Shown one piece after another: positions 7,046 through 54,133 of a DNA stretch of 64,000 bases (the stretch's first letter is position 1; each line of letters starts with the position of its first letter). Source of the DNA: Eledone cirrhosa (Eukaryota); assembly GCA_964016885.1 (NCBI GenBank), contig OZ024740.1, forward strand, positions 123,380,001-123,444,000, given 5' to 3'. A program made the translations under genes and the position numbers. Below the pieces are notes generated by a model. That model had not been told where the DNA came from. It saw only the letters and a list, made by a program, of their open reading frames with translations, and searched no databases.

Positions 7046-8649
7046 TTTAACGGGCGTCAGTAAATAGTTATGAGAAAATTTCAATCAGTGAAATAAAGTT
7101 TATGACTTTAGGACGATGATAATTTAAACATTTATGACAGACCTCATTCGTTAGTGTTAACATATTTTATGAAGTGAGCATTAAATACCTCCCTATGAAT
7201 ACGTTTTGTGTCACGATTTGTTCTCCGCATCCAGCCTTATCACTTCGGCTACATTTCCGGTCTCCACAGTCCGAAATGCAGAGAGAAAGGTAGTTAAAAA
7301 CCGGGGCCTGACTGACCGCTTTATTTTTGTACAGGTTTCCTTAGAGATGTTTGGTGTGCTTAGGCCCGAACTGCTGATTTCCCTCGTGAAAGACAGCGAC
7401 TCGCTTGAGGAGGCATTCTCGTGAGGTGGCGTGCCTGTTGGTACGGGTGTTTCTGGCCATTCTCCTCTTTGGTGCTTTTGTCAGTTTGTCCACGGGGCGC
7501 AGCTGAAACACCACTCGGTCTAGAATGTACTATCTGTCCCTCCCCCTCTCTTACGTTGATTGATTTCTTTTTTTTCTGTTCCTTTTTTGCATATAATAAT
7601 GTAAATAATGTGTTTTGTTTTTGTATAACAACATAATTAAGATTATTCATATAATTGAGCATTTCCTTTATGTTTTTTGAATTACAATATATTTCCCCTT
7701 TCTTTTAAAAACTCTGATAAAGATTATGTCTCTCTTTAATTACATGTAAACACTGAAAAGCACACATGTATCGCGTCGTGAGTGTCTCGTCACAATATAA
7801 CAATCCTAAAACACTTCTGGCGTCACGAAGGGTACAGATTAACGTGAGCGGCTCCCAAGACAGTTAGCAAATCAGTAATTTTACAATCTAAATAGTTGAT
7901 GCCATATTGGAGATATTGAGAGTTATAGATTTATATATAAATACCCCGGAGTAACTACCTACGGAATTACATGCTTTAATCAAAATTGTATTGCTCACCT
8001 TTATCAACTATGAACTGTTTCACAAGTAAGTAAGTTGTCATTTTTTAAACATCTCTTGTGTAACTTAAACAGACATATTCTACAGTATTTTTCCTTTTAG
8101 CCACTGTTTTCAAGGAATGAATTTGGTTTTTAAATATTTCCAAAAATATTTAGATATTTCTTTCGTATACTTACCTGACCGTTATCTGTTATTAAAACAT
8201 GTAAATTTAAAATGAAACCAAAAAGATGTTTGTTCTTTCACCAACATTTCGTTAAACATTCAGAATCTGTTACTATAAATATACGTTTCATAATATTGCA
8301 TACGTCGTTCTGAAAACTTATTTCTTTGTATGTTAAATTCTCCCGGGAATTGGTTCCACAATAGTAGTGTAGCGACTAGCGCCACCTTGCCCGGGGAGAA
8401 AAAACTAATTGGAGTTACTTTCCGTTGAATTCTAGAAGATTCCTTGAACTTCCAGTCTAGGGATTATAAAGGAGGGAGAAAAGAGACATCTTAGCTTATT
8501 TGGCGACCGGCTCTCAGATAGTTCACTCACGAGGGAGTTTGTTAACCGTATTATATCTGTATCGAATTTAATTAGTGGTTGGCCTGCAGTGGCGTTTACC
8601 AAAGTAAATAACCCTGTGACCAATTCACTAAAGAGGTGACCTCGACGTG

Positions 8650-9149
8650 ATTGTTTCAGGGAGGTGGGTGGTGCGATATGCTGAATTGCTTCTACCTTAG
8701 ATGGCAAATGACGTATACCTTCTGAATCTATAATATGTCCAAATAATCCCAGTGAATCTGTACCAAACACACATTTAGCTGGGTTGATTCTGATTTGGTA
8801 CGATTGGAGACGCAAGAGAACACACAGAAAGACGAGATAATGCGTCCGCGGGTATGTTGGCAGCTCCAGCTATATGACGAATGTCACTGGTGTACTGGGA
8901 GATGAAATCCAAATGTCTGTATGCCCTTGGAGAGTATATGTCGGACTTGGTTTGAAGAGCGAATGTGAGTGGTTTATGGTCTGTGAATACCATGAACTCC
9001 CGACCTTCAAGATGGTGGAAGTTCCGGCTAATTAGCACGTTTAATTTTTGCTGTCTTTCCTGTACTCCGTTGACCGCAAAATACGCATCAAGTTGGGCGA
9101 ACCAAAATTTGGCATCGCCAGAATACGCTGGTAACGATGTCTTGCTCAT
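8650..9149 (-). pseudogene. Gypsy gag N-terminus, RNase H and RT-thumb fragments, fused out of order
   Basis: LPAYSGDAKFWFAQLDAYF (gag); EGREFMVFTDHKPL..RHLDFISQY..IRHIAGAANIPADALSR (RNase H); INPAKCVFG...GHIIDSEGI..LPSKVEAI (RT). Confidence 0.92.
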
Positions 9150-9238
9150 GATGAAATTTGGTCGAGAGAGATGATTTTCTTTTTCAAAACGTCGGTAGAA
9201 ATTATTTATTCAAACGTCGGTCACCAGTACCACATATA

Positions 9239-9612
9239 GTACCACATCCTTATCTACGCCTACTCGTAAATCTACCTCTACTGCTGTCAGTCCGTCCTTT
9301 TTTGTGGCTGCCGCTGGAAACCAGTTTCATGCACTCCTTACTTCGTTTCCCGAGTTAACGGATATTTCATTTAACCCTACTCAGGCAGCCCACTCGACTC
9401 AACACTTCGTAACAACAATTGGTCCACCTGTTTTCTCTCGTCCACGAAGGTTGGCTCCGGATAGATTTAAAAAAGCACGAAACGAGTTCGAGCATATGCT
9501 CCAGATCGGTCTTATACGACCGTCCACCAGCCCACTGGCATCTCCGCTTCACTTGGCTCGTAAGGGTAAAGCGGATTTTAGGCCTGTGAGAGATTATCGA
9601 CGACTTAATGCC
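9239..9612 (+). pseudogene. Gypsy pol fragment (PR-RT linker and RT N-terminus)
   Basis: GPPVFSRPRRLAPDRFKKARNEFEHMLQIGLIRPSTSPLASPLHL..K...FRPVRDYRRLNA. Confidence 0.93.
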
Positions 9613-10119
9613 GGACCGTTTGGTAAACGCAGTGGCGTTTACCAAAGTAAATAACCATGTGACCAATTCACTACAGTAGTTTGTCAATGTTGTTGGAACT
9701 AACTCACGGGAGACGCAGTCGAGGAACAATTACTCGAACCATCATCGATCAACTCTCAGACGATACAAATATCCGTAGGGAGCAGCTGCCAGGAGCATTG
9801 AAACATTGAGTTGTGGTACCACTTTGTGAGGAATATTCAACTGTGGTTGCGATAATGACGATGGTGGTTAAGTTGTTATTCTGAAAACATGTAGAGGATT
9901 TGGTTGTTATATTTTAATCTGGGGCGTTCCATGTTTGTCCTCTACGCCCAATTAAGGAAGAAAAACTTATGAAGGTAATGTATTCCCAAAGCAGAATTTC
10001 TTGTAGCATGTAATTGAATATCCACGTCTTTCGAATTGTTTTCTCTGAATAATGTCCATGTTTTACCGGATTAACGATTACCACCACCAAATCGGTAGGC
10101 GTGTATGTTTAAGAAAGAA

Positions 10120-12760
10120 GCCCTACGTTTGATATGGTGACTGTGGCAGCTATCGCTAGCTGTTCTCCGTGGCAATGCTTTCGTTATTGTATCTGCGGGG
10201 CGTAGCAGCTGAACCATATCGTCTAGACAACGCTGGAGATTCTGACAACATCTCAGCCGATCCTCGGCGCATTAAAACACATTGTATCCGCGGGGCACAC
10301 AGCTGAGCCATATCGTCCAGCCAACGGTAAAGATTCCGACAACACAAGAGATAATCCTTTGCCCCTGAAAACAAATTTTATCTTTTGTCACTTTCGAGGG
10401 ATGCAAATCCCGAATTCGGGATGCAAGGGCTGTGACTCTTTCACGGCGCCAACCTTATCACTTTGGCTAAAAGCCCGGGCGTTGCTGTCTGCAAGCAAGG
10501 GAATTAAAGATAGTTAAATGCCGGAGCCTGATCGACCGTTTTCTCTTTGTACTGGTCTCCGTCGGGATCTCTGTTTGCTTCGTCCCCGCCCTGCTGATTT
10601 CCTCCCTAAAGTCAGAAAGATAGCAGCCCGGATGAGAAAGGACCCCCCCCCCCCGCCAGGTGACCTGGATGTTGCAGTAGGTGTCTCGTTACTCTCAACT
10701 GTAACGTTTCACATAGCGCAGCTGACACAACGCTTAGACAGCGGTCAGTGTGTCTTCCCTACTCTCTTTCTTTCCTTGCTTAATTCTTTTTTTTTTTTTA
10801 CTTTTTCTTCCTTTATATAAACAGCGGGTGGAGGCCGAAAGGGTCCACGGTGGATCCGCTGCGACATTGGTGTGGCTCGCAGATCCGGAGGCCGAGCCTC
10901 AAGGAAACGCCAATGTACAGGCTATTATTGTCTAGTTGCGTGACAGTGGAGAAGGGCAGGGCATGGAGCCACTGTGAGTTTCGGAGGCCGGACGAAAACA
11001 GGCAAGGCGGTGCTGGTCGAGCTGGCGCGTAGGCCTGTCTGAGGCCAGGCTGCACTGGATGGCATCGTAAATGCTTTGGGGGGAGGGGGGTGACATAAAC
11101 AGGGGCATGAGGAGGAGGGACGTCTACTGTGCTGAGTCCCAGCTGGTCCCACGTCTCGCAGGCGGCCTCACGTTCTCTGAACACAGAGGGTTCTATTGTT
11201 TTGGAGAACCCTGCTGACGAGGATGCGGCACGAGGTTACCGACGAAAGATACGCCGGCAAAGCCAGTGAGATCGGGAACCGGAGGCCATGGCCGCCTTAC
11301 CTGAGAGGTAAGATGTGTGAGTGTAGCACGAAGCGCTGCGAAGGGTATAGAGGAGCTTCGGCATGGCGAAGCAGTTCCTCAACAGAAAGAGGGCTAGGTG
11401 GCCGTCGATCAAGCCCAGTCGGCTCGTGAGAGTCTGGAGTTGTTGAAGCCTGGACCTGATGGTGGCGCCGATGACCGGCGGGTGGATCGGTGACCCGAGG
11501 ATAAGGACATCCTCTTTAGGGGTGACCTGTACCTGGTGGAGAATGGGCCGCACGTCCGAGACGGATGCTGCAAAGCTCTCACCACCTCCGACTTAGCTGA
11601 GTTGACCTGGAGGCCGATTAACCTGGGTTCTGCTGCACGTCGGGCTGAGAAGGCTAAACTCCTCAAATACCTGTCGCTCTCCGACAGGTTTGCGGTTGTA
11701 CCCCTGGCAGTGGAGACTTCTTGTGTCCTTGACCCTAGGGCTACCTCCCTACTCACCACCATAGGCGCTAAGCTGGCCAGCCGCAGGTGTGATTTTTCCA
11801 GCGCGTCTCCCTTTCTGTCCTCCGGGGAAACGCCTTTCTCCATTCTGACCGCCGGGGCTGGAGCGGAGCCCGATCGCGTATCATTCCATATTTAGTTGTG
11901 GTCAGTGTGTGTGTGTTTGTATATATTGCTTTTGTTTTCATTCAGCATCATGTCATTCTTCATTGCTTTTCTCTACTAATGAATTATATTTGGAAAAATA
12001 AAATAATCTGTAGCTACCATTGTAAATAGAATTGAGAATGTTTCCGTTATTTCATTCTGAAATTAGAGTGTTTCGTCACATTAACAATTCTGACGTCACC
12101 AATAATACAGTCTCGCGTCAATTCCTTCAACGAAAGTTACGAAATCATTAAGTTTACCGTCGAAGTATTTGTTGTCTCAACGGAGGTATTGAGAGATATA
12201 AATTTATATATAAATACCCTGGAGTAACATTCTACGGAATTACATTTTTTAATCCGATTTGTAATGCTCACAGTTATCAAGTGTGAACTGTTTCTCAATA
12301 AGTAAGTTGTCATCTTCTTAAACATCTCTTGTGTAACCAAAACAGAGATATTTTACAGTGTTTTTGTTTTACTTTTAGCCACTCTTTTCATGGAACCTAT
12401 TTGGTTTTGATATATTTAAAAATATATTTCCTTCGTTTGCTTACCTATACATTTTCTTTTATCAAATTATGTATGTTCGTTCACCAAGATCTCGGGAAAC
12501 ATTCAGATTCTTTTATTTAAAAACATACGTTTCATAATGTTTTACATGTAGTTCCCTAAAGTTATTTGTCTGTCTGTTAAAATTGATATTCTGGAAAAAC
12601 TGGAGAGGGTGTTGTATTTTAATTTGGGGTTTTCCATTTTTGTCGGTTGGGCCAACTTTAGGAAGCAAAATTTATGAAAGTCATTTGTCCCACAGCAGAA
12701 TTTCATGTAGCATGTAATTGAATACGCACGTCTCTCGAATTATTTTCTCTGATGAATTCT
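10120..12760. repeat. Repeat unit U3, interrupted at ~10826-12008 by a CRE-like element
   Basis: Collinear with U1; U1 AACAGC/TTAGTTACCATTGTAAA is split here by the insertion; internal ~90-bp duplication at ~10187-10345. Confidence 0.85.
10826..12008. mobile_element. CRE-clade-like (restriction-like endonuclease) non-LTR retrotransposon, 5'-truncated with inverted 5' part
   Basis: Plus ~11625-11790: GSAARRAEKAKLLKYLSL..FAVVPLAVET, then 3' UTR and an A-rich end. Minus ~10826-11625: GLQVNSAKSEV, LLRNCFAMPKLLYTLRS, WLHALP..QLDNNSLYIGVSLRLG..ICEPHQC..VDPFGLHPL. Confidence 0.85.
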
Positions 12761-12983
12761 TATTTCTTTTGTAAATCATATTTATTATATGAATTGATTT
12801 GATATGTTCAATATTTTCGAGTAAATGTAAATAGTCATCAATTAATTATTTTGTTTTTCACTTTTACGTTTTATATATTTTGTAATCACTTTTTACATAA
12901 ACACAAAACATATATAATGTGATTTACAACAGAAGCAGATAAATAAATATGAGTCAGAAAGATAAGAAATTATTTTCATGTTA

Positions 12984-13169
12984 AATAATTGTTTCTACTT
13001 TTAGGCACAAGGCCAGCAATTACCCAGTGCATTACTGGTACTTTATTTTATCGACCCCGTAAGGATGAAAGGCAAAGTCAAACTCGGCGGGATTTGAACT
13101 CAGATCGTAAAGGGACGTAACTATGCTGGAAAGCATGGCGTCCGACCCTCTACCGATACTGCCAATCCA
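12984..13169 (-). mobile_element. tRNA-derived SINE, young family
   Basis: Minus: A-box-like TGGCAGTATCGG, B-box GAGTTCAAATCCC, central GACTTTGCCTTTCATCCTTACGGGGTCGATAAAATAAAGTACCAG; near-identical to the copies at 16579 and 60075. Confidence 0.9.
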
Positions 13170-13231
13170 AATGTTCAGACATCTGTCGTAAAGAAAACGT
13201 GTACAAGTAGATGTTTTCAAAATTCACATTG

Positions 13232-13410
13232 CTGTTGTTTAGCGAACCGTCAATCCTGATAAAAAGAGAGCGATATATGAACAGCGACTATCCATTCAAT
13301 TATTTTATTTAATCACTATCAAGGAATATATTAGCCAATATTACCCTCCTTTCTAAGACAGAAATATGTAACTTGAGACAGATTTGGTTGTTATTTCTAG
13401 CAAGCCAATT
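13232..13410 (+). repeat. Old dispersed short repeat family (other copies ~21765-21910 +, ~40540-40600 -, ~58088-58265 +)
   Basis: Shared GTTGTTTAGC start and GATTTGG(C/T)TG(C/T)TATTTCTAGCA end among copies within the window. Confidence 0.55.
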
Positions 13411-13529
13411 GTTTGTTGATCTTGTGAAGGTTTAACAAAATTTGGCAAAATTATCATTTGAAAAGTTATTTTATGGGGTATATTATTCCACTGGTAGTTG
13501 TTATCTTCCTCTTTTTAACCCACTTATTC

Positions 13530-14445
13530 ATGAGTCCTGGGGGCAGTCCTCAAGCACGCTTTCCAGTGGGTGCTGTCAGAAACAACCGTCTCCAATTGAT
13601 CCAGATTGATAGCCAAGCGAGACCAGCCGTGCTCATGGATGTTGTCTAACCAACTTGTTCGGAGTCTAACACTGGGTCTGTTGTCGGTTGGTTTTTCCCG
13701 TAAGATATGTCTAGCTATTCGTTTGTAGTTATATATATTATAACTACACATTCGTAATATCGGAGCTGTCATCACTCAATTCGGAGATGTAGCGGTCTTC
13801 TTGGAACAATTATCTGGTCTCGGGACTACATATTCTATCAAGTAACATTGCTCCCACGACCCTTCGGAAGAAACCCATTCCGGCCACTTTTATTACCCAA
13901 GATTCATGACCAGGGATAAGGTTGACCCGAATAAAGAATTGAAGATGAGTTTAGCTTTTATACCCACCACCCCTCTTCTGGTGGCGGATGGCTGCAGCTC
14001 GCTTATTACTGCAGCCCACCTGCAATTCTTGCACTTATTCAGCCTCACAAAGTCAATAACTCGTGAACACAGCCTCGAGAGCTTCAACGTCTCCACCAGT
14101 TTTAGTGGAAATCCACTCACACGTGATGTGCATTGTGTAGGCTTCCTAGCGTGCATATCATACCTGCCGTGTATCTCACGCCATCAAACCTATTAAGTGC
14201 ATGACAAAGATCACCTACAGACGAGTTAAGTAGAACCATGGCATCAGCAAATTCCAGTCGACTGTTCCTACACACTACTGTCTTGATACCAATTCCAGCC
14301 CGGCTGCGCAATTCAATCCTGCCCATAAAGATTATGAATAGAGGACGTGAAAATACGCACCTTTGGCAGAGTCCGACACCCACATTGAATGGTTTTGATA
14401 TAGCACCATTTATCGGAACAAATATACAACAGCATTTGTATTTAG
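13530..14445 (-). mobile_element. RTE-clade LINE (Rex3/Expander-like), decayed 3' portion
   Basis: VGVGLCQRCVFSRPLFIIFMGRI..SRLEFADAMVLLNSS..DL (RT core); RPSVRLRTSWLDNI..GWSRLAI..LETVVSD..W (C-terminus). Confidence 0.82.
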
Positions 14446-14694
14446 ACATGTATGTGAGAAGGAGAGTCTGCGTTTTACCGTTATTTTTTACGTCTTTGTC
14501 TTATCCGCCCCATTTTGACTATATATATATATATATTCTAACCCCAAATCTAGCCCAATCCCCACTAACCACCCTAACCTTCGTGAAGTACGGTTAACCA
14601 AAAAACGAATTTTCATCGGTTTTAAAAGTCAGATTTATTGAAATAGCAAAGAAAACTCCGTGAATTAGTTTCCATTTTCTAAAAGGAAGATTTG

Positions 14695-15017
14695 GAGGTC
14701 TGATGAAAGAACCTAGAGAAACGTCTCCCCGAACGGCAGACGGATGTTTTTCTATAAATTTACCTATATATTTACCGATAATGAACTGCTTTTGAATATG
14801 TATAAGTTGTCATCTTTTGAAAATCTCTTGTTCAGCCAAAACAGACATGTTTTACAATGTTTTTCCCGTTTAGCCACCATTTTCAAGAAATATATTTGGT
14901 ATGAAATATATTGAGATATTTAATTATTTCTGCTTTAACTAATTTGTGAGTTTTTTGTTATCAAAATGTTTAAGTGAACAACAAAAGCAATTATTAAACC
15001 TTGAAAATAATTTCCTA
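14695..15017. repeat. Repeat unit U4 partial (duplicated at ~15846-16168; resumes ~19056-19285 after the Penelope insertion)
   Basis: ATGAACTG..TAAGTTGTCATC..ATCTCTTG..AAAACAGACAT..TTTAGCCAC matches U2/U3; 19056-19285 matches ~8283-8340 plus 9866-10080. Confidence 0.7.
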
Positions 15018-15095
15018 TATATATATATATATATATATGAAATTGAAAAAGTGAACAATAACATGGTCAACAGTATAAACAAGGAAATTTCTTTA

Positions 15096-15201
15096 CAGTC
15101 TAACAATTGTTTCTATGATAGAGTTGTGTAAAAATTGCTAAACACTGAAGTTAGTGTCAATTTAAAAGACATGCAACCTCCATCATTTCGTCAGAGAACT
15201 G
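15096..15201 (-). ncRNA. Type I hammerhead ribozyme of the Penelope-like element (duplicated copy)
   Basis: Minus: CAGTTCT-CTGACGA-aATGATGGAGGTTG...CAACTCTATCATa-GAAA-CAATTG-TT-AGACTG. Intact core, long stem II, palindromic minimal stem III, stem I with one bulge. Confidence 0.75.
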
Positions 15202-16246
15202 AGAAAAAATACAAAATATATGCGTAACGGTAAATTTATAAATTCAAATTACTACATCAATAATAATATTAATAATAAAGATATAGAGAGAAATAAATGA
15301 AGGGGGACAGATGGAAAAGAGGGGGAAAAAGAACAACGAAAGAGAAAACGAAAATACAGTTAAATGCAAATTCCGGCAAAATTACGAAATCAAACTATCA
15401 CATCAAAATAAAGATAATATTAATAATTGTTTCTACTTTTTGGCACAAGGCCAGCAATTACCCAGTGCATTACTGGTACTTTATTTTTGAATAGAGGACG
15501 TGAAAATACGCACCTTTGGCAGAGTCCGACACCCACATTGAATGGTTTTGATATAGCACCATTTATCGGAACAAATATACAACAGCATTTGTATTTAGAC
15601 ATGTATGTGAGAAGGAGAGTCTGCGTTTTACCGTTATTTTTTACGTCTTTGTCTTATCCGCCCCATTTTGACTATATATATATATATATTCTAACCCCAA
15701 ATCTAGCCCAATCCCCACTAACCACTCTAACCTTCGTGAAGTACGGTTAACCAAAAAACGAATTTTCATCGGTTTTAAAAGTCAGATTTATTGAAATAGC
15801 AAAGAAAACTCCGTGAATTAGTTTCCATTTTCTAAAAGGAAGATTTGGAGGTCTGATGAAAGAACCTAGAGAAACGTCTCCCCGAACGGCAGACGGATGT
15901 TTTTCTATAAATTTACCTATATATTTACCGATAATGAACTGCTTTTGAATATGTATAAGTTGTCATCTTTTGAAAATCTCTTGTTCAGCCAAAACAGACA
16001 TGTTTTACAATGTTTTTCCCGTTTAGCCACCATTTTCAAGAAATATATTTGGTATGAAATATATTGAGATATTTAATTATTTCTGCTTTAACTAATTTGT
16101 GAGTTTTTTGTTATCAAAATGTTTAAGTGAACAACAAAAGCAATTATTAAACCTTGAAAATAATTTCCTATATATATATATATATATATGAAATTGAAAA
16201 AGTGAACAATAACATGGTCAACAGTATAAACAAGGAAATTTCTTTA

Positions 16247-16352
16247 CAGTCTAACAATTGTTTCTATGATAGAGTTGTGTAAAAATTGCTAAACACTGAA
16301 GTTAGTGTCAATTTAAAAGACATGCAACCTCCATCATTTCGTCAGAGAACTG
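16247..16352 (-). ncRNA. Type I hammerhead ribozyme of the Penelope-like element
   Basis: Same sequence as 15096-15201; same strand as and 3' of the PLE ORF. Confidence 0.75.
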
Positions 16353-16578
16353 AGAAAAAATACAAAATATATGCGTAACGGTAAATTTATAAATTCAAAT
16401 TACTACATCAATAATAATATTAATAATAAAGATATAGAGAGAAATAAATGAAGGGGGACAGATGGAAAAGAGGGGGAAAAAGAGCAACGAAAGAGAAAAC
16501 GAAAATACAGTTAAATGCAAATTCCGGCAAAATTACGAAATCAAACTATCACATCAAAATAAAGATAATATTAATAAT

Positions 16579-16760
16579 TGCTTCTACTTTTTGGCACAAG
16601 GCCAGCAAATACCCAGTGCATTACTGGTACTTTATTTTCATAAGGATGAAAGGCAAAGTTAACCTCGGCGGGATTTGAACTCAGAATGGCAAGGGCCGTA
16701 ACTCTATGCGTCAAAGCATGGCGTCCGACCCTCTACCGATACTGCCAATCCACCGCCATC
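16579..16760 (-). mobile_element. tRNA-derived SINE inserted in the PLE 3' region, 15-bp TSD
   Basis: GATAATATTAATAAT at 16564-16578 and 16761-16775; same family as 12984; partial copy at ~15422-15487. Confidence 0.9.
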
Positions 16761-17539
16761 GATAATATTAATAATAAAAATACATATAGAAAGAAAAGAG
16801 AGGGGATAGATGTATTAGAGGTAGAGAAGAAAACGAAGGATGAATAAGGAAAAATATAGAGGAAGATAAATAAAGAAAAAGAAAGCAGGTAGAGACAGTA
16901 ATTGTTGATGAATACAGTCAGAAATATGATGGGGAGAAGGAGAAAGATAAACAGACAGACGAAAATACATTAATACAAGAATGAAAGCGAGTGAAAAATT
17001 GAGATTTAAGTATAGAAACAAATAAATAAATACATAAATAAAAGAATAGATAAATAAATAAACAGATAGATGAGTGAATAAACAATTTACATCTATTGTT
17101 ATATAAAATAATATAATATCTGGAACGTAGAGATGAGAATAAATAAATAAATAAATGGGTTGAGAGACTAATAAGAGTAGTATTAATGTTGTTAATGTTA
17201 TTGCGAATAGTTATTGATTATTATTAAATATGGATAGATGTAAAGTTGAAAATATTATAATATTGGATATATTAATGTGTGTATTGGATATTTTAATAAG
17301 TAAATTACCTAGTTTAAGATGTATTGCATGATAAAATAAAATGATCGAGATGAAATAGGTTTAAGTAGAGAAATGCAAAGACAAAAGGTGAAAGATAGAG
17401 GTGTATAAAATAATAATGTAAATACAAGATGTTCTGATGTTGTTCTTTGGTAATTATTATGGTGACAATGGTGCTGATAATGTGATATCGTAATAGATTG
17501 TAATGTTATAAAAGGGATAAGGAATAGAAAATGGAATTA

Positions 17540-18990: not shown

Positions 18991-19006
18991 CTCTCAGTAG
19001 CTGTTG

Positions 19007-19057
<51 letters not shown>

Positions 19058-19306: not shown

Positions 19307-19368
<62 letters not shown>

Positions 19369-19371
<3 letters not shown>

Positions 19372-32097: not shown

Positions 32098-35032
32098 TAT
32101 CATCATCATCATTTTACGTCCGCATTTGCCTGCTTGGGCTGGACCGGTCCTATTCAGCACAGCATCTCTCCACTTGTCACAGTCCTTCATCATCTCCTCG
32201 GTGAGTTTCAGTAATCTGAGGTCTGCTCTCACCACCTCCGCCCATGTTGTTTTTAGGTCTACCTCTACTGCGTCTTCCTTCTACTGGGATTTCTTGGCAC
32301 TTCTTTACCCAGCGGTCATGCTCCATGCGCATTATATATCTATACCATCTCAGCCTACTCTTCTGCACACTACAACTTATCCCTCTTATATCCAGTTTCT
32401 TTCTCAACTCGTCCATGCTCGGTCGTTCACACACATTGACATTGCACATCCAAACCTAGCATACTTGCTTCATTTCTCTCCAGCTGTTGCATATCCTCTG
32501 CTGTTGCTGCCTATGTCTCACTACCATGCAGCATCGCTCATCTCACGCAGGCATCATATAACTCTCCTTTCATATAACTCTCCTTTCATATGCAGGGAGA
32601 AACCCTTCTTTGTCAACAAAGGAAGCAGCTCCCTAAACTTCTCCCAACCCGTCCTTATTCTAGATACTATGGCCTTGGAACACCCCTTCCCATGCTAATC
32701 TGATCTCCTAGGTACCGGAAGCTATCAACCACTTCTATAGAGCCTACCTGCATTGGAAAAAATGTGTCTATCACTGAAATTAATACTGCCAACTTTCCCT
32801 GTAAATCAACTGCATACATAGTGTTCCCTACCTGTTAGTTTGCCTGCTATCCCACTACATCACTTGTGTACCCAAGATCAGCATTGCGTACATTTAATGG
32901 AATTTATGTCAGTACCTTTCCTACATATCGAACATGGCCATTTCCCTGATGGAATCGGAGTATTGTCCTATCTTCTACTTATCAACACTTTTGTCTTAGC
33001 TATGGTCACTCTCAGTCCTCTTGATTCCAACTGCTGTTTCCATAGCCAGAATTTATTCTCTAGCTCCTCTACTGATTCTGCTATAAGAGCCAGATCATCA
33101 GCATAGAGAAGTTCCCATGGGCATCCAGTCTTAAACTCCTCTGTTATGGCTTGGAGGACTATAATGAACAAGAGCGGGCAGAGGACCAAAACCTGATGTA
33201 CACCTACTTGTATCTGGAATTCCTCACTAAACTCCATACCTACTCTCATTTTACTGAGAGCATCCCTGTACATAGCTTGCACCCCTGTACATAGCTTGCA
33301 CTGCCCTCACAAGCCATTCCTCTACACCTAGTTTCCTTAGGTACCAGCAGATGACAGATTGGGGTACCCTATCAAAAACCTTCTCTACGTCAACAGAAGC
33401 TAAGTATAGTGGCTTATTCTTCTCTAGGAACTTCTCTTGTAGTTGCCTCACTAAGAAGAGAGCATCTGTTGTACTTTTCCGAGACACAAAACCAAACTGC
33501 ATCTCATCTAATTTGACTCTTTCTCTAATCAGTTGCGCTAATATTCTCTCTGACACTTTCATAACCAGATCCATCAGCTTTATGCCCTATAGTTGCTCCT
33601 CTCTAGAGAATTCCCTTTACCTTTGTAGCAATTTATGAGAATACTGCTGCACCATTCTTTGGGTATGACACCACCATATATAGCTTGATTAATGATGCGT
33701 GCAACTAGTTTACTGCTTACTTCTCCTGATGCGTTCAGCATCTCAGCAACTATCCCTGACGGTCCAGCAGCCTTACCATTCTTTATTTCCTTAATTGCCT
33801 CTTGTACCCTATATTTGTCAATCTCAATAGCTTGTCCCTCTGTCGGGTCTACTAGGGGTAATTTCTCTCTGTCTCATTCGTTCTCCACATTTATCAGTCT
33901 CTCATAATGACATTTCCAGGCCTCCTTTTTTTGATCATTCATGACACTAAGTACATTGGCATCATTCCAGACACACTTATCTCCAACAACATCCTGATTT
34001 GCACTGACACACTGCCTTGCAATGCGGAACACCGCACGTCTCTGATCTTCCCGTCGCAAACATTGGCAAATCTCCTACTCTCAGCCTCCCTGCGTGCTAA
34101 GTACACCTGACGTCCGGCTTCTCTTTTAGTGGCTGTGTATCCTTCTCTACTCCCACCGTTTTTCCAAGCCTTCCATGCCAGTCTTTTGTCTCTAATGGCC
34201 CTATCTACCGTGCTGTTCCATCACCAGGTCACTCTCTGTCTGGTTGAAGCTCTGCCCCAACCACAAGTTCATTAAGTAGCCTGCAGTAAGTTGTCACGCA
34301 AGAAATTCCAGTTATCATCTATGTCATACAACTCTAAATCTTCTTTTTTTTCATCTTACACATCTTGAAGAGTTTTGCTAAATTTATATTTTAATGAAAG
34401 GTATTTTAGCTTCCAGACCTTTCTTTTCCACACCTTCCTGTATGTCTCATTCTTTCTCTTGCTTACTAATGATGTCATTAACGACTAACCTATGCTGTGG
34501 GGTACATTCTTCCCTGGGGTATGCCTTAGTATTTGACACCATCTGTCTGTCACGCTGTCTAACGAGCAGGAGGTCAATCTGGCTTGTGTGCTCGCCTGAT
34601 TTGTAGGTTATTAGGTGGTTAGTAGTCTTCTGGAAGTTAGTGTTGCAAATGGTTAGTGCATGTGCATCACAAAATTCAAGAAGCCTCACTCTTTCATTTC
34701 TTGAGCCATAACTGTGCCCACCATGTACCCCAGTGTATCCATCTTGGAGCTGTCCAACATGTCCATTGAAGTCCCCCGCTAGCATATCGATGTCTCAGTC
34801 CTCTGTCATTGAGGCTGTTTGTAAAAGTTGCTCATAAAAACAGTCTTTCTCTTCTTTACCTAGGCCTGCCTGGGGAGCATAGGCAGAGATGATTGTCAGT
34901 AGTCTCTTGCCTACAACTAATCTAAGCTTAATTCTATTACTAACTCTAACTACCTCTATTGTCTTATTGATCCATCTCTCAGCCAGTAATATGCCCACCC
35001 CACCTAAACCATCATCATTACCCACCCAGAAT
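32098..35032 (-). mobile_element. RTE-clade LINE, near-complete disrupted ORF, nested in the CR1-like element
   Basis: APE motifs GVGIL, IISAYAPQ, AGDFNGHVG, SQID; RT ELLYADDLALIA; 3' tail GCGGACGTAAAATGATGATGATG. Confidence 0.95.
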
Positions 35033-45000: not shown

Positions 45001-48000
45001 TAGGTGCTAAAACCTCATTTTGATGGCAACACCTAAATAACATTTCCAGTAAGATCTATAGAATATTGTAGTCAATAAAACAAAGAAATATTGTTATATT
45101 TTATTAAACATAGTTACCTAGTTACATATAAGAAAATATCTGAATTTATCATTTCAAGGCAAAATGTTATGGTCAGGTGTCATATAAATCATTGTGACAG
45201 AATTTTCATCTTTTGGCCATGCCTTGTCATATTGCTACATTGAATGTAGGTTGCTGTCAGATTTAGTAACTGATATATAACAAAATGTCAATCCATTCAA
45301 AATCTTTACCAATCACTTTGAGTCTATTGCTAAGTTTTAGCTTTATACATTTATAATAAGTTAGATAGACATAAATATCATGTGATTAGCTAAATGATTG
45401 AATTTCTTATGGAGACCTTTCTGTTTTGCTTATTCATTGTAGCATTATCTCCTAAACGACTAACTCTAAGTTTCGAAAGCAAAGCGAGGTTGTATATAGT
45501 TTTCTTTACACAATTCATTACAGCTCACTTTTTCCATTACCTCTAATAAGAATCCAGTTGGTCTAATCTAACAATCAGCTCTTTTATTTTCTTATAAGGG
45601 CTGGCCTTATTAACATTAGCTATTTTTCTGTTTCACAATGCAAGTCTTTTAGCTGTACTGCCTTGCCACAAAAAGACAATAGCTTAATTATTCTCTTGCG
45701 TCTTGGTATTTATTACAATTTGCCTATCCAAGTTCCTTATGAGGATGAAGTTAATTTGGCTTGTATGCCAAATTGTAGGTAATCATGTGGCTGGCTGGAC
45801 AGTTTCCAGAGGTTTATATTTTAGAACTCTACAAGCATGTTGAAAATCATTAGAAATATGCTATCAAACGGGTTAATGTTTCTGTCAATTTTAAATAAAA
45901 TTTATCATTTCAAATCGCTAATGTGAAATAACGTTGCATTTACTAATATATAGTACACTTGTTTATTACATTGATTTAGGAAGGAAGGGGTGGCAGCATC
46001 CAACATTCACTACACCTATGTGTGTATCTGTATAGCAAATTGGCTACACACACTGGCTGTTATGATTATGTATGTGTGTGTAAATGTGTGTTTGTGTAAA
46101 TTATATTTATATATAGTATTTGTGTGAGTTTATTTAGAAATATACATAAACAATAGAATTACAAACACACATGAATCTACACATACATATATATAAACAG
46201 ACTCACTTGTAAAAACATAATTATAACATGCACACACATATATGATGACTGAGAAGGAGGGGTTAGAAAGTATTATAGAAGTCCAGCGTTCTAAGATTTG
46301 CCACAGCTGTATGCTTGTGTGTTTGTATCCCTTGTGTGAGTGAGCGTGAAGGAACTAACCAACAAACAAACACATCTCTTTTCATTATATTATCTATAGA
46401 TATGACAATAAGCCATCATTTTTTATGGCACGGGGCCAGCTAGTTTATTAATAAAAGCTTAGCTTCAATTTCAGTCATAAAGTGTTATGTTATACCTAAT
46501 TTTAATATGTATCAAACATTCAACATGTAAGTTTTGTATTTATCATTTTATTTTAGTGTTCATTCTTTAAAAATAAATTATTATGAAACAGATTTCGTCA
46601 GTATTGGATAAATTCATTGAAAATATATTCATTGAAACATATTTATAGAAAAGCAAATAGGTTAGGAAACAACTTGAACAAAAACATTCTCAACATCAAA
46701 TTTATCAAAAGAAATATTCAAGAAATAGAGAAAATTGTAATCATTGAAAAAAAGAACCCACCACATTCATAGCATTTATTGAAACTAGATGGATGTTTAT
46801 TATATGTTAACATATTTTAGATAAACATTTATTGATAAACTTTGATCTTATTCATGAGCAAGAGAGCAAAGTTATAACTGCATCCATGAACTTGATCAAA
46901 TGCACAAATTCATGTTTAATGAGTTGCCATTTGATTACACATCAATTTGATGTAAAGTGTTCAATATCATCATATGCACAATTATAATTTCTAATTGTTT
47001 TTACTTATGTCTTTAAAAAAATGTTAATATTTCAAATAGTATATTTTGATCAATTTGTCCTTCAAGTAATGTTTTTAGACAGTTATCTTTTCATAATGGT
47101 CTCATTACAAACACTTTTTGTCTAACTTATCTTTCTGCCAATAAACTTCCAACCAATGTGTATTACAACCGATATACTAATATGTCTTTAATGAATATCC
47201 CTGGAGTCTATTTATTCAGATAGGGCATCCAAGATTGTTGGGACTTCCTTGTGAATTTAAATGTGATAGATTCCCCCACATACACACACATGGATATATA
47301 CACATCTCTTAATGTTATAGTTAGACTTCAAGAGCTGTATCTGTTACCTTCATAGGCCATATGACATTGGTGATATGTGAGCTGTGGATGTATCTCTTAA
47401 ACTGCTACACACAAAATTTAGGTAGGATGAGAATTTCAGATGGGTATAGTTCTGGATTTGGGAGAACTGAGTGTAGTGATTAGTGTAAGGCCCAGACATG
47501 CAGATGGTCAAAATATAGGTGACTAGAAAATGAAAAAAAATCAGTTTGAGAGGCCAAAACCACTGTAGCAGTACTAGAAAAAAAAGTGAGGAGACACCCC
47601 AGATATGGGCCAGAGCTAAGAATATGATGGCAACTACATGTCAATTAGTTGAGCAGCTTTTAGTTATTTATTGTTTATTTTTTTATGCAATGTATGTGAA
47701 GTGGCCTCATTCTATAAGTGGGAGCTTTATATCATTGCAACTCTTACTTGAGCTTGGAATAGGATTAGTAATTATTGGCAGCTGCAATATTTTCCAACCC
47801 TAAAAGGGAAGCGCAATCATAATCGTGTACTGTTTGCTTTGTTGTGAATAGTTCGAGAAATGGAAGAATAATCTCTTTGTTTCTATCTCCTTCGATTTTA
47901 TTGCTAACAAACCCACCCCATATACATACTCAACAGATTTACAGGATTCCTTTCATGGTTAAATATTCATCATTAGCTTTTATTGAGTTGACATTTCACA

Positions 48001-48980
48001 GGTGTGTTGATTTCCAACTGAAAATTTAAATCCAATTTACACTCAAATATTCAATTGTATACGTTTTTAGATTCACTTTATTCTTATAGTGTTTCATAAT
48101 AAAAATACTGGCAATTTGCCTACAAGTATAGTAGGCAAGTTGGCGAATGTTTGAGATTAGCTTAATCTACATTGTTAGTATAAATAAATAAATAAATGAA
48201 TCATAATCTGTTCAATTTGTTGTTTTAAACTATTGACTTCTACTATATTGAAAATTAAAGCAAGAGACACTAGTATACTCTAGCATTTAAATTCAGTAAT
48301 GTTTTAATATATTGGAAAATTTCAACAAAGGAAAACGATTTTTATTGAAATCACTGGGTTGTTATATTTTCTCTCCCTTCAATATTCCAAGATATCAGAT
48401 ATTAAAGAAATAATCAATTTGTTTTCTGAAACACAGTGAAAACATACTTCATGCTAGACAAGTTTGAGAAACAGTTGTTGAATAAATCAGGCACCATATG
48501 ATAAATTATTCAGAAATGTTGATTTCTGATTGATTTTAAGAAACAAAATACAAAAGCAAAAGTCACCATAAAAATGCACAGGTGGTTAGTTGATAAATCT
48601 GTTAAATTTGTTGTGTTGTTGATTCTTTTGAGAAATGAATTATTGGGTTATATTTAGAATAAAATATGTTATTGACCTGTAAATAACAGATAAATGAAAA
48701 TAATAATAATAGAAACACTTTTTTTAATTAGCTTCTTAATGGATACTTTTCACTGCCAAAATGCATAACCATAATTGAATGCATTCAGACACTGTCATGA
48801 TTTATGACTGGATTGCATAAACTAAAAATAGTAATCTGACAGAAAATCTCCCAGAGATGCTTGTCTGGCTGAAGCATTCATTGTTAAGTGCAGGCTAATA
48901 TACAAAATGTATTTAGCTAATATTAATATTTAATCATAAAAATAAACTTGTTTAGGTTGTGTACTTTCCGTTAATATCAA

Positions 48981-49589
48981 CCCTCTCAGACCTGAGTTTC
49001 CGTGTCTAACTTTAACCACCACCTGGGGTCCTGAGCAAAAGATTACTCTTGGACTGAATCAACATATGGTGCAGTAAATGGGTCTACTCACCATTCATCT
49101 AAATTCACATACACTCCACCACCTCTATCTTTATCAGCTATGTGAGGGTCACACCAAATGTATTCAGCTGAATCGCGACTTTCTTTACGACATTGAAAAG
49201 TTTCATTGTCTGAATCACACTCGCTGTCTTTGTAAGAGTAAACTTATCAACATTCTTGCTCATCTTCATCCATAGAATAAATATAAATAATTTTGTTGAT
49301 TGTAAAGAGTTTAAGTTTTGTTCATTTACCAAAACAATTGCTGGGTTCATCACACACTCGTTTCATTGCAAACCTAAATTGATTAAAGCCAAAAGTAAAC
49401 AATAGCTACAAGGGACGCCATTAACAATGAGTTATAAACACACGTAACTACAAAGCTGTGACATGACCTGTTGTCTATGTTTAGTATTTTAACTTTTTCT
49501 ACGTGTTTTGGCATTAACATTTCAATGGAAAACCACTAGAGATTAAGTTTAGGCTAATACCACCCCAGTAGGAACATGATGCAACAGGG
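48981..49589 (-). mobile_element. Candidate decayed piggyBac-like element
   Basis: TCAA-CCCT...AGGG-TTAA ends; broken acidic frame MDEDEQE..DSECDSDNE on minus; inverted match is only 4 bp. Confidence 0.3.
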
Positions 49590-49989
49590 TTAACATCAAG
49601 TATAGTGCTTTTTACATTTAAGTAGTTTCTACCTGAAATCCAAATTAAACAGAGATGACAGAAAATCTCACTCAAATCACATATCTAAAAGGAAATGCAT
49701 CAAATAATATAGGCTTAGATGTTGTTTGCTTAACAAAAAACAGGTTGGTTGTTTGATCTTAAATCTGTTGGATCTGAGGTGATCTAGGTCTAACCAAGAG
49801 CAAAAACTGTTGTATTTCTTTCTACAAACACTGTTCTAGATTATATATTCTCTATAATCTTGAATTGCTCTTGAATAAAAAAAAATTCTCAAAGTAAACT
49901 GAGCAAAGAATAAAGTATTATTAAGCAGAAAAGAAGACAAAACGCTACAAAGCACCATACAGTGTATCCATTGTAAATCGTATGTACTA

Positions 49990-52900
49990 ATCAGCGATCA
50001 AGTAAACGTAGATGAGATGCAATTTGGTTTTGAGTAGGCTGGAGATATGACTGATGCAAACTTCCTTGTTTAATAATTGCAGGAGAAGTATGTAGCTAAG
50101 AGTAAGCCCCTTTACCCTGCATTCAGTGATATAGAAAAGGATTTTGACAGAAAGCCTTGCTCCATAACCTGGTTGGATCATTGGAAACTGAAGTTAAATA
50201 AGTGGCTTGTGAAGGCTATACAAGCTATTTACAAAGAAAGCAGTCAGAAAAGTGAGTTTGCAATAAAATGACCACCATGGCTCTGTTCATATCCCCCTTT
50301 TGTTATAGTCCTCAAGGACACGACGGGGAAGTTTAAGACTGGCATAATGCATGCATGATGGCCTAGTTAAATTCCCTGTGGAATTAGAGAAATTTCAGGC
50401 CTGGAAGCAAAGTCTGAAATCAAAAGGTCTCAGATATTCCTAGCCAAAAATAAAATCATATTAAGTTAAAAATTTGGCAGAACTCTGATACCACCAGAGA
50501 AATGACCATGCTCAATATTCAAAAAAGAAGCTGGTTGAAATTGTATATAGTTCTTCCTATATTCTGTAAAGGAAGACCTGAGAAAACTTAGTGATGAAGT
50601 GATAAAAGTTGACCTTGTCCAATTAAACCACACAAAGGAGATGGCACAGGATCGAGACCTCGTGTCATTCTGTACTGTAGAATAATCATCCACCACCACG
50701 TACACAAAGTGAAATGAAACTGCTGATTCAATAATCTGTATCGACTTCCGTCTAGAAGGGGGGGGGGGGTAAACTGTACCTTGTGGGTCCTTGGCTTCAT
50801 CGTTAACGATTTTCGGCTAAAAATCTGCTCGGAGGTGATGTAGTGACCTACATTCCGCGGGCTCACATACATTCTCTGTGCGTGATTTGGCTCAGCTCAG
50901 CCAATCAGCGCCAGGAGAAGAGGATGTATCCCTACTCGTTCTGAGAGAGAAATAGCCCGCGTAGATTTGAGAAATCAAAGACTCGCAGCTTGACCATACT
51001 AAGGTAAACACCACTTGTTCTTTTGCTCCGTAAGCACACAAAATATGTAACAACAAAACATTCCTACGGGCCTGGCCAAACGCCTCAGCCAGTCGACCGT
51101 ATTTTCTCTTGTAATCTTAATTGAATTATTTCATTTCTCTTGGCAGGCCAGCTTAATTCAGTTCTTAACCTTTGTTAATAAATTATGTAAAAACAAGCTA
51201 AAGTCGTTGTCGATATTCCTATCATATCTTTCTACCAAACCTGGTTCCTCGTGGCAACATTACAACTCTCTGAATATAACTCCCTGTTAAATTGGTGACC
51301 CTCGACGATTAAGTATGAAAACGCAGCCTATTTGAATTCGCCATTCGTTTTAATGGCTATGTGGAGTGGCTTAACATTTGGAATTTTCGAATCGTGTAGC
51401 TAGACTCACTTAGCGTAAGTCCATACAATTCATAATATTCCATTTGTTGAAGCACGCGGCCTGCACAATATTTCTGTCATAACTTTCATGGTAACACTAG
51501 TAACTCACGCATACAGACGAACACAAAAATACAACAAAAAAAAAATTAATTAAAAAAAAAGTATTTCTCTGGATGTGGAATATTGCTTTCGGCGTTCTGT
51601 TGAAATTACAAATGGAGACTCAGAAATTTTGTTTTCCCGCGTACAGCTTGCCTTCTCCAATCCCAGCTGTCTGATTGGCTGCATCGTACCACATGACGGC
51701 TTCTTCATCACAGACGCATTTTTAAATCGGCCATCTTGGATTTTTGTGCCGAATAATTTTCATGGAAAACAATTTTTTTTTATTATTCAAATTTTCTTTA
51801 GAATATTTTAGAAATAAAAGAAAAAATTAGCAGTATTTCAAAAACTTTTCGCCACGAGGAAATTTCAAAACGGCTATCACCAAGTACCAGACATCAGCAG
51901 CAACACATGGCTAACTATTAACCAACACCAGGGAACGGCTTGTAACTTGACCGACGCAACCACCATACCTTCTGTCTCGTTACCACAAGGACTCGAGAAA
52001 TTAAGACATTAGCTTTCTCACCATTATGGCGTCAGACGTGGCTGCCATGTTGGTGAGGCTAGGTTCTTCAACGCTCGACTTCTACTCTACAGAAGATTCA
52101 TTGTGACTTTGCTTTAACATCAACAACAACTCTACTAGCTCCCTAGTAAGAGAGTTCCCAAAGAAAATAGAAGCGAACTTTTTGTTAAAAGAAAAGAAAC
52201 AATTCTTTCTTTCTTCCTTTTTTTTCAGGCATTTATTTTGGACATTTATTTATTTTTTTTAAACTGTATTATATGAAAATTCATTTCTCTCTATCATTGT
52301 ATATGTGACCGCAGGCACACATTTTCTTTGCTGTATTACATGCCTGCATATATACACACACCAACATGTTGTTGTGTATGGTATGCGATCTTCAAGAGTC
52401 GTAATATTCTGCGAGGTCTCTTTTCACCTTCTAGAGTTACCAAAACATGCTATTGACACTTGCAGCTTAATTCACCTGCATCGCAACACGAGAATGCTAA
52501 TTGCAGCTGAACTCAAACAGTTTCGCATCTCGTTGCACATTCATCGTCCATAACAACCTCTATCGTGTTATCTTACCCAACTCACCGGGAGAACAACAAA
52601 TAGAACTGGACTTGTCAGCATTTCCACCACTTCTGTGGATTCGCCCGAATTGTGGGACTGCAACCCACCTACAGATTCAGCTTGCTTTTTTTCTTATCAA
52701 AGCAACCAGCCATTTTTTCCTGGCTCCCTAGCACATTCAGCAATACATCTGGGAGGCCAACATTTTCTCGCCTACCCATCTTCTTGCCAGCACTGGTAAA
52801 CTATCATAATAGCTTCGTCCACAGCTACTGGTACAACTCTTACCATTAACATTTAATGCAAGAACAGCAACTTCGCCCATGTCAGACTTTATCTGTTTTC

Positions 52901-54133
52901 TGTTAGACCTTTGGTGGTCACGTATAAACTATAAAACAGCTAGTCATTTGACAGTGGCTCAACACGGCCCGTAGCGCCTCATTTTTTTTCTTGCATGCAT
53001 CTTTCTGCTCAATTATTTGTTCACGTCGGGTTCACCAATTTAGCAGGGATTTATATTCAGAGAGTTGTAATGTTGCCACGAGGAACCAGGTTTGGTAGAA
53101 AGATATGATAGGAATATCGACAACGACTTTAGCTTGTTTTTACATAATTTATTAATAAAGGTTAAGAAGTGAATTAAGCTGGCCTGCCAATAGAAATGAA
53201 ATAATTCAATTAAGATTACAAGAGAAAATACGGTCGACTGGCTGAGGCGTTTGGCCAGGCCCGTAGGAATGTTTTGTTGTTACATATTTTGTGTGCTTAC
53301 GGAGCAAAAGAACAAGTGGTGTTTACCTTAGCATGGTCAAGCTGCGAGTCTTTGATTTCTCAAATCTACGCGGGCTATTTCTCTCTCAGAACGAGTAGGG
53401 ATACATCCTCTTCTCCTGGCGCTGATTGGCTGAGCTGAGCCAAATCACGCACAGAGAATGCATGTGAGCCCGCAGAATGTAGGTCACTACAAAACAAACA
53501 GGTAGGGGAGACACTAGCCTGCAGCAATGCGCCATACCCTACCTAACTTAATACCTCGATCACACCTATATATCCCATGCACCTAATCAATGTCAAACTC
53601 ACTCACCTGTCCCCCCCCCCCCACCGCACCAACAGTCATGATACACCTCACCTGCCCAGGCTATGAAAGCTAGACACACTTGACATCTTACCTCCAACAA
53701 AACCATGACAAAACACAAAATCTGTAATGTATGCTGATCTGGCAGCACAAAAACAAAATCACCCAATCCTTCCTGTAAAGTGATGGTGCTGGTGACATGA
53801 CAAAGCGCCTAGTCCAAATTGCAAGATGGTTGTGTTGGTGACACAACAAAAACACCCAGTCCACTTTGTAAAGTGGTGATGCTGGTGATTTGACAAAAAG
53901 TGCCCTGTTCACCCTTAAAGGTGATTGTTTTGGTGCTACAATGAAAAAAAACACTCAGTCCACACTGCAAAGTACTTGGTGTTACAAAGGACATCCAGCC
54001 ATAGAATCCAAGGCAAAATACAAATAAATATGAGCAAACAGTTATCTCTGAACCTGACTTGTTTCATAATGTGACTACCCATCTAACCAATGCAAGCATG
54101 GAAAATAGACATTAAACGACAATGATGATGATG
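49990..54133 (+). mobile_element. Old internally deleted RTE LINE split by LTR copy B (49990-50720 and 53492-54133)
   Basis: DEMQFGF, LQEKYVAKSKPLYPAFSDIEKDFDR before the insertion; ~43-bp UTR repeats (53690-53990) and (GAT)n tail after it, matching the layout of 41300-42041. Confidence 0.82.
50721..53491. mobile_element. Non-autonomous LTR element copy B with inverted LTRs and AAAC TSD
   Basis: AAAC at 50717-50720 and 53492-53495; 3'-internal piece 50721-50838; LTR(+) 50839-51291; PBS from 51293; internal to ~53024; tRNA-Trp-like 53021-53037; LTR(-) 53039-53491. Confidence 0.92.

What the first reader, a model, noticed from the sequence alone, without database searches (positions are those of the whole stretch)
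8632..53037. Same signature in two unrelated LTR families: imperfect tRNA-Trp PBS paired with LTR+tRNA-copy inversions
Both rearranged elements have two facing PBS-like sites: one imperfect and followed by normal internal sequence, one closer to tRNA-Trp and directly fused to inverted internal sequence. Their LTRs look unrelated. Inference: a PBS that mismatches the primer copy destabilises second-strand transfer and repeatedly yields integrable inverted products, a possible route to inverted-LTR (fold-back, dsRNA-forming) elements. Two cases in 64 kb would imply it is common in this genome. I do not know whether this has been described.
Basis: inference. Interest (0 to 1): 0.78.

Follow-up and report, generated by a model that had tools for sequence, protein, structure and literature searches.

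The report
Primer-tRNA copies seed inverted retrotransposons
Both elements are inserted retrotransposon copies in which a DNA copy of the primer tRNA's end is joined to reversed element sequence, likely because a copying intermediate jumped onto the wrong strand; the same join recurs at many other sites in this genome and sometimes yields fold-back elements that would make double-stranded RNA if transcribed.

Summary
Both elements carry an LTR plus an 18-nt copy of tRNA-Trp joined by microhomology to antisense element sequence, and both have 4-bp target duplications. Element A really spans 50721-53491 and is a circularly permuted copy missing 31 nt. Element B has no inverted LTR pair.

The join recurs. 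12 of 80 exact tRNA-Trp sites on contig C1 continue antisense. In family B (11-nt PBS), 8 of 16 PBS-bearing LTRs carry the tRNA copy and none of the 8 resumes the normal leader; 0 of 45 C1 copies in four perfect-PBS families are inverted. Some copies read through tRNA position 58, often with a wrong base, which points to reverse transcription of mature tRNA.

PBS mismatch is only partly the cause. Family A is inverted in 1 of 28, and a perfect-PBS family also misjumps, mostly as deletions. It is not as common as two per 64 kb. The steps are known from Ty1/Ty3 and retroviral vectors; ten searches found no report of integrated antisense products. Two earlier scan notes on fungal elements are look-alikes only.

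The parts
50717..50720 (+). Element A, left target-site duplication (AAAC)
   Evidence: the only left end in 50690-50760 that duplicates the 4 bases after 53491
50721..50838 (+). Element A: 3' end of the internal region with the polypurine tract; begins at an internal TG, likely used as a cryptic integrase end
   Evidence: matches positions 2172-2290 of normal copy L082
50839..51291 (+). Element A, central LTR (453 bp)
   Evidence: 98% identical to the terminal LTR; all 8 differences are absent or rare (at most 2 of 38) in other copies
51293..51309 (+). Family-A PBS (9 + 5 nt pairing to tRNA-Trp with a bulge), followed by the normal leader
   Evidence: (25 of 28 family-A PBS are of this type)
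51310..53019 (+). Element A: non-coding internal region, ending 31 nt short of where the 50721 piece begins in a normal copy (circular permutation)
   Evidence: contigs of one sample join 53018 to 50721 through 32 letters
53020..53037 (-). tRNA-Trp 3'-end copy, fused to antisense internal sequence through GTGA microhomology
53039..53491 (-). Element A, terminal inverted LTR (U3 end outward)
53492..53495 (+). Element A, right target-site duplication (AAAC)
8364..8367 (+). Element B, left target-site duplication (GTAG)
8368..8632 (+). Element B, LTR (265 bp)
8634..8651 (+). tRNA-Trp 3'-end copy; 7 of its last 8 nt match the antisense landing site
8652..8812 (-). Antisense piece of pol, RT region (reference 2359->2191)
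8806..9022 (-). Antisense piece of pol, RNase H region (reference 2931->2711); 7-nt overlap with the previous piece
   Evidence: weak RT_RNaseH hit below Pfam cut-off
9016..9226 (-). Antisense gag start, leader and family-type PBS (reference 501->269), stopping exactly at PBS nt 1
9236..9612 (+). Sense piece at the start of RT (reference 1478->1853)
9619..9675 (+). 12-bp hairpin and last 47 nt of the LTR, ending CTACA where 31 of 32 matching LTR ends read CTAAA
9676..9679 (+). Element B, right target-site duplication (GTAG)
1..2359 (-). Ordinary family-A copy with direct LTRs, used for comparison; its 3' LTR runs off the window start

Best explanation
These are integrated Ty3/gypsy-type copies whose LTR-plus-tRNA-copy strand likely missed its normal second-strand jump and primed, by a few bases of microhomology, on a plus-sense template, so that antisense sequence follows the tRNA copy. 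Shown: the copy matches tRNA-Trp including CCA, stops near position 58 or reads past it, joins by microhomology, and the products are flanked by the family's 4-bp duplications. Inferred: (1) the strand is plus-strand strong-stop DNA; (2) in family B its last 7 nt have no partner because the PBS skips tRNA nt 12-17, so it cannot be extended at the PBS, and normal B copies probably arise by a tRNA-free route as in Ty1/Ty3; (3) the template is more likely the co-packaged RNA than plus-strand DNA (about 65:35); (4) a second integrable end is gained by a later switch back to sense, by copying into a U3 end (fold-back), or by a cryptic TG/CA as in element A. What matters is whether the 3' end of the tRNA copy finds a partner near the PBS, not mismatch as such (about 55% likely).
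For: tRNA-Trp genes give the primer sequence and lack CCA. Read-through copies: 8 of 17 contexts have a non-T base opposite A58; 8 end at nt 38-42 around G37 and 5 at nt 47-49. Microhomology in 26 of 27 mapped junctions (1 dropped): 4.4 of the last 8 nt match, against 2.0 at random and at most 3.0 in 20,000 simulations. Duplications at 10 of 11 family-B tRNA-copy loci, one of them inside (TA)n. Family B 8 of 16 against 0-1 of 45. Mapped family-B joins are 9 antisense and 2 sense. Element B's antisense run stops at PBS nt 1, where an already-primed RNA ends. Element A is a full circle minus 31 nt, as an R-to-R jump would give. Nine loci have the 18 nt joined to an antisense U3 start through CGTGAT; in two of them the copy runs on through the PPT into antisense coding sequence.
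Against: Family A has an imperfect PBS but only 1 of 28 inverted. Perfect-PBS family c0 also misjumps: 4 sense deletions, 1 foreign insert and 1 antisense capture among 6 odd copies, plus a fold-back in a relative. The rate contrast rests on one family, B, and families are not independent samples. The 26 junctions were hand-picked because they could be mapped. One genomic tRNA-array copy has A at nt 19, so A there could be templated; 2 of the 8 non-T cases are family-fixed. RNA and DNA templates are not separated by any search. L084, L202 and several singletons could not be mapped.
Confidence: 0.75

Rival explanations
1. Same reverse-transcription origin, but the rate is set by the enzyme or particle that mobilises each family (strand displacement, RNase H timing, co-packaging), and family B's short PBS is coincidental.
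For: Family A and c4 have imperfect PBS yet few inversions. Perfect-PBS c0 misjumps at an extrapolated 8 of about 53. Joins between different families occur (L122, L123, L272).
Against: None of the 8 family-B tRNA copies resumes the normal leader, whereas in A and c4, where nt 12-18 partly pair, tRNA copies do rejoin it (L218; 7 of 7 in c4). L116's 5' LTR also has a short 12-nt PBS.
Confidence: 0.17
2. Ordinary copies were inverted later by host repair (microhomology-mediated end joining), and the tRNA-like PBS are ancestral or back-mutated.
For: Microhomology also marks host repair (PMC13427564, passages). Family A's PBS resembles a decayed 18-mer, and L152 has a perfect PBS before the A leader.
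Against: Up to 49 nt of tRNA, absent from normal B copies, are present with CCA and wrong bases at modified positions. The duplication flanks the rearranged cryptic end of element A. Joins sit at the end of the tRNA copy in many loci.
Confidence: 0.04
3. Integrase-mediated autointegration (inversion circles) followed by genomic insertion.
For: Inversion products are known in particles of the Arabidopsis element SISYPHUS (PMC7197481, passages).
Against: Autointegration joins the LTR end itself to internal DNA; here the join follows the tRNA copy and uses microhomology.
Confidence: 0.02
4. The two window elements are assembly chimeras of repeats.
For: No public contig bridged the element-specific joins with 31 or more letters on each side.
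Against: Matching 4-bp duplications, private LTR differences, tRNA-specific bases and recurrence at many loci.
Confidence: 0.02

Closest known systems
Dead-end plus-strand strong-stop DNA of yeast Ty1/Ty3 (PMC5371799, section 2.2 read; Lauermann and Boeke seen only through this review)
   Same: The first plus strand copies the primer tRNA and is displaced; normal progeny keep the element's own PBS, as 25 of 28 family-A copies do.
   Different: In Ty that strand is described as a dead end. Here it is extended on a plus-sense template and integrated with a target duplication.
Inaccurate plus-strand transfer in MLV vectors, giving deletions between the PBS and downstream sequence (PMC3185545, passage citing Mbisa 2005; Pulsinelli and Temin 1991 and Olsen 1990 recalled, not seen)
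   Same: Join at the end of the tRNA copy; matches the sense deletions in family c0 (L279-L282) and in L185, L187.
   Different: Those described are sense deletions in single-cycle vectors. Here 9 of 11 mapped family-B joins are antisense, endogenous and fixed in the genome. RSV work recalled to include inversions could not be read.
HIV-1 strong-stop termination at m1A58, read-through to position 37, and the primer over-extension sequence (PMC13191261, passages)
   Same: Stops at nt 18 and near nt 40; families c0 and c2 carry a fixed tRNA-like extension behind the PBS.
   Different: In HIV the position-37 product is described as not serving for transfer; here copies to nt 38-49 are integrated.
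Autointegration inversion circles (PMC7197481, passages)
   Same: Inverted portion between LTRs, made in the particle.
   Different: Breakpoint at the LTR end and extrachromosomal; here after the tRNA copy and integrated.
DIRS-type elements with inverted terminal repeats (PMC7192593, listing only; features recalled)
   Same: Inverted long terminal repeats.
   Different: These have a tRNA PBS, a PPT, 4-bp duplications and normal direct-LTR siblings.

Membership tests
Ty3/gypsy LTR retrotransposon (families A, B) | Direct LTRs, PBS and PPT in normal copies | tested here: met
   LTRs end TG...AA rather than TG...CA
Ty3/gypsy LTR retrotransposon (families A, B) | Target-site duplication of fixed length | tested here: met
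   4 bp in normal, solo and rearranged copies
Ty3/gypsy LTR retrotransposon (families A, B) | pol order RT - RNase H - integrase | tested here: met
   Pfam order in tRNA-Trp-primed family c3, L093; family B's broken ORFs are collinear by eye and tblastn. Family A is non-coding and is assigned by structure only.
Ty3/gypsy LTR retrotransposon (families A, B) | RT phylogeny places it in a named gypsy clade | not tested
   no tree built
Mis-transferred plus-strand strong-stop product | Sequence after the LTR is a copy of mature primer tRNA (CCA; stop or wrong base at modified positions) | tested here: met
Mis-transferred plus-strand strong-stop product | Microhomology between the tRNA-copy end and the landing site | tested here: met
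Mis-transferred plus-strand strong-stop product | Intermediate seen in particles | not testable with these tools
   needs particle cDNA sequencing
Autointegration inversion product | LTR end joined directly to internal DNA | tested here: not met
   joins follow the tRNA copy
DIRS-type element | No tRNA PBS and no integrase-type duplication (recalled) | tested here: not met
   both present
DIRS-type element | Tyrosine recombinase gene | not tested
   element A has no ORF of 120 aa or more; no recombinase scan run
dsRNA-forming fold-back element | Transcribed into dsRNA or small RNAs | not testable with these tools
   no RNA data could be laid

The most novel reading that the evidence does not exclude
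In gypsy families whose PBS cannot pair the 3' end of the tRNA copy, the 'dead-end' plus strand routinely primes on the co-packaged RNA and is integrated. This makes up half of the PBS-bearing copies of such a family, builds fold-back elements with two U3 ends that could silence their own family, joins different families, founds subfamilies with a new PBS, and leaves a genomic record of tRNA modifications at positions 58 and 37.
Probability: 0.4. Interest if true: 0.75.

Novelty: new variant of a known kind. Interest (0 to 1): 0.6.

Why it matters
It gives a sequence signature by which rearranged LTR copies can be traced to one step of reverse transcription instead of to later host repair. It shows that a strand regarded as a dead end in Ty1/Ty3 can be integrated, at high frequency in one family. 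It offers a route to inverted-LTR loci that would produce family-specific dsRNA if transcribed, and to new PBS and subfamilies. The link between PBS length and misjump rate is testable in any assembled genome.

Tried and rejected
1. A tRNA-Trp isoform explaining the C-to-A in element A's copy: no match. Three other sites with that variant belong to family c4 relatives. A later point mutation fits the 8 private LTR differences.
2. Two-parent test: differences between LTRs within rearranged elements are private, so they do not show whether two RNAs took part.
3. Expression: no RNA holder listed.
4. Contigs of 4 runs gave no bridge over the element-specific joins and no empty site among the joints shown; 32 joints were not shown.
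5. Family c4 was first taken as a perfect-PBS counter-example; one search showed its usual PBS is imperfect.
6. In one search the last pattern letter accidentally excluded c0's normal leader, so the c0 denominator (about 45 normal) is extrapolated from C1, not counted. The same filter passes the normal classes and can only lose some tRNA-type copies.
7. CTTCTACA after L111's 3' LTR is a coincidence with its duplication GCTT.
8. Two paper look-ups failed. PMC3832253, PMC3187697, PMC13427564, PMC6934838 and PMC13570524 (passages) do not describe this join.

Full report
1. Observation. The window (G000:C1:123380001-123444000, a 3.0-Gb eukaryotic genome) has exactly two near-matches to the tRNA-Trp complement, at 8634-8651 (+) and 53020-53037 (-), against 0.01 expected. 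Genomic tRNA-Trp genes confirm the primer sequence and do not encode CCA. Each site follows an LTR end after one spacer base and faces a family-type PBS. The two LTRs are not detectably related, although both families use tRNA-Trp, end in TG...AA and make 4-bp duplications.

2. Element A. Mapped on one normal copy (L082), the + strand reads: internal 3' piece with PPT (50721-50838), LTR (50839-51291), family PBS, internal region to 53019, then the inverted tRNA copy and inverted LTR to 53491. The two internal pieces are adjacent in a normal copy except for 31 nt. Contigs of one sample join 53018 to 50721 through 32 letters. AAAC is duplicated only if the left end is the internal TG at 50721. 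Read on the - strand, the element is an LTR plus tRNA copy, followed by one almost complete antisense circle of the family genome. The join uses GTGA. All 8 differences between the LTRs are absent or rare in 38 other copies, so the LTRs were probably identical at insertion.

3. Element B (8368-9675, duplication GTAG). After the LTR and tRNA copy come antisense pieces 2359->2191, 2931->2711 and 501->269 of reference L079, then sense 1478->1853, a hairpin and the last 47 nt of the LTR. Seven of the last 8 nt of the tRNA copy match the landing site. The antisense run ends at PBS nt 1. There is no inverted LTR pair.

4. Recurrence. The exact 18-mer occurs 410 times. I fetched all 81 sites on C1 as 80 regions. 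Forty-five belong to four perfect-PBS families (c0 14, c1 14, c2 10, c3 7); L116 and L161 were set apart as other subfamilies. None of the 45 is inverted, and one (L101) has a variant leader in sense. Of the other 35, ten continue antisense (L091, L100, L109, L111, L122, L123, L124, L139, L155, L162), two end in an 8-nt antisense U3 start (L102, L116), one jumps in sense (L141), and the rest are normal or unmapped. L123 and L124 share one join and may be one event. Scaling 12 of 81 gives about 60 exact cases genome-wide and perhaps a few hundred with mutated copies (my estimate). Two in one window is therefore luck, not the genome's average.

5. Family rates. A pattern needing only the LTR end and 11 PBS bases gave 25 hits. 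Nine were dropped as other subfamilies by LTR identity; L194 and L207 were kept on short but 97-100% LTR ends. Of 16, eight have the family PBS and eight the tRNA copy, and none of those eight resumes the normal leader (4 antisense, 2 sense, 2 unmapped). Against the 45 perfect-PBS copies, p is 3e-5 for any misjump and 0.003 for antisense. Over all family-B loci seen, mapped joins are 9 antisense and 2 sense. Results against a simple mismatch rule: family A has 25 family-type and 3 tRNA-type PBS (7 other rows dropped), and only the window's is inverted (p 0.38). Family c4 has 7 imperfect and 7 tRNA-type PBS, the latter all rejoining its own leader, with two inverted relatives on C1. Perfect-PBS c0 has 4 sense deletions, one foreign insert and one antisense capture among 6 odd copies, plus a fold-back in a relative. 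Its rate of about 8 in 53 is extrapolated. Family B differs in that its PBS skips tRNA nt 12-17 altogether.

6. The copy comes from mature tRNA. Seventeen distinct contexts read through position 58. Eight have a non-T base there, 8 stop at nt 38-42 near G37, 5 stop at nt 47-49, and 2 of 8 that pass nt 40 have a wrong base there. Arrest and misincorporation are the known signature of m1A (PMC4787781, abstract), and HIV strong-stop DNA ends at positions 58 and 37 (PMC13191261, passages). That this tRNA is modified at these positions is my inference. One genomic tRNA-array copy has A at nt 19, which weakens the A cases. Breakpoints in the 8 unselected family-B cases are nt 15 (1), nt 17-19 (3) and read-through (4).

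7. Microhomology and integration. In 26 of 27 hand-picked junctions (L289 dropped for a poor map; L086 kept although off by one base), 4.4 of the last 8 nt match the landing site against 2.0 at random, and the contiguous match is 3.1 against 0.7. Four-base duplications flank 10 of 11 family-B tRNA-copy loci (none found at L084; L204's lies in (TA)n) and nine loci of other families; L155, L310 and L116 were not resolved. Fold-back products with U3 ends at both sides and a duplication include L039 (561 bp), L258, L271, L087 and L288.

8. Mechanism. Shown: tRNA copy, microhomology, antisense continuation, duplications. Inferred: plus-strand strong-stop DNA whose 3' end cannot pair at the PBS primes on a plus-sense template. 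RNA is favoured because B stops at PBS nt 1 and A forms a circle as after an R-to-R jump; plus-strand DNA begun upstream of the PPT remains possible. A second end comes from a switch back to sense, from a U3 end, or from a cryptic dinucleotide. dsRNA from fold-back copies is predicted and untested.

9. Comparison and novelty. In Ty1/Ty3 the tRNA-bearing plus strand is a dead end and the primer is not inherited (PMC5371799, section 2.2). MLV vectors give PBS-adjacent deletions when plus-strand transfer is inaccurate (PMC3185545, passage). Inversion circles arise by autointegration (PMC7197481, passages). Ten searches returned no paper on integrated antisense products of this step in endogenous elements. 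The library lacks most older virology papers; Pulsinelli and Temin 1991 and Olsen 1990 are recalled, not read, and may describe single cases. No supplements were consulted. The scan's earlier notes hold two fungal look-alikes and nothing on this genome.

10. Verdict. A real and recurrent feature; a new variant of a known error in reverse transcription. Interest 0.6.

Noticed in passing
L225-L233 (9 loci): The 18-nt tRNA copy is followed by the same 8 bases, the antisense start of one LTR family, joined through CGTGAT. Some donors are other families. L288 has a 4-bp duplication; in L287 and L289 the copy continues through the PPT into antisense coding sequence.
   Followed up: partly
families c0, c2 (L092, L120); L195/L196: Perfect-PBS families carry a fixed tRNA-like extension behind nt 18, in c0 with a non-T base opposite position 58. 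It resembles the lentiviral primer over-extension sequence.
   Followed up: partly
family B leader, L079: The PBS is bipartite: 11 bp, a 6-nt loop-out of the tRNA, then 7 bp with the T loop (duplex -27.9 kcal/mol).
   Followed up: partly
family c4: L235, L239, L241, L247: Four copies share a perfect PBS and a short leader deletion. Possibly a subfamily founded by a near-target misjump that replaced the imperfect PBS.
   Followed up: partly
window 1878-1917; L026, L111, L149, c3 leaders: PBS relics and duplicated LTR-end-plus-PBS units near LTR 3' ends suggest that U5 grows by absorbing old PBS.
   Followed up: no
L085 (G000:C6:44166250-44168816): One element holds two tRNA copies, facing each other, both joined to the same reference position 3204; duplication GATA.
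   Followed up: partly
L194/L286: Family-B fold-back with a family-type PBS and expanded 25-nt leader repeats, so not every inverted product carries a tRNA copy. Left end not resolved.
   Followed up: partly
G000:C4:353.40-353.49 Mb; C14:21.37-21.46 Mb: A tandem array with about 35 tRNA-Trp matches, and a tandem array of c0 elements with multiplied LTR segments.
   Followed up: no
window 32100-34315 and 55762-57947; 14332-16638; 63257-64000: An 86% identical inverted repeat pair of 2.2 kb, a 99% tandem duplication of 1.15 kb, and a long (TCA/TCT)n-rich tract.
   Followed up: no
earlier notes e1-7587810, e1-9523158: Fungal gypsy copies with an inverted PBS beside the 3' LTR might be products of the same misjump rather than a new priming mode.
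   Followed up: no
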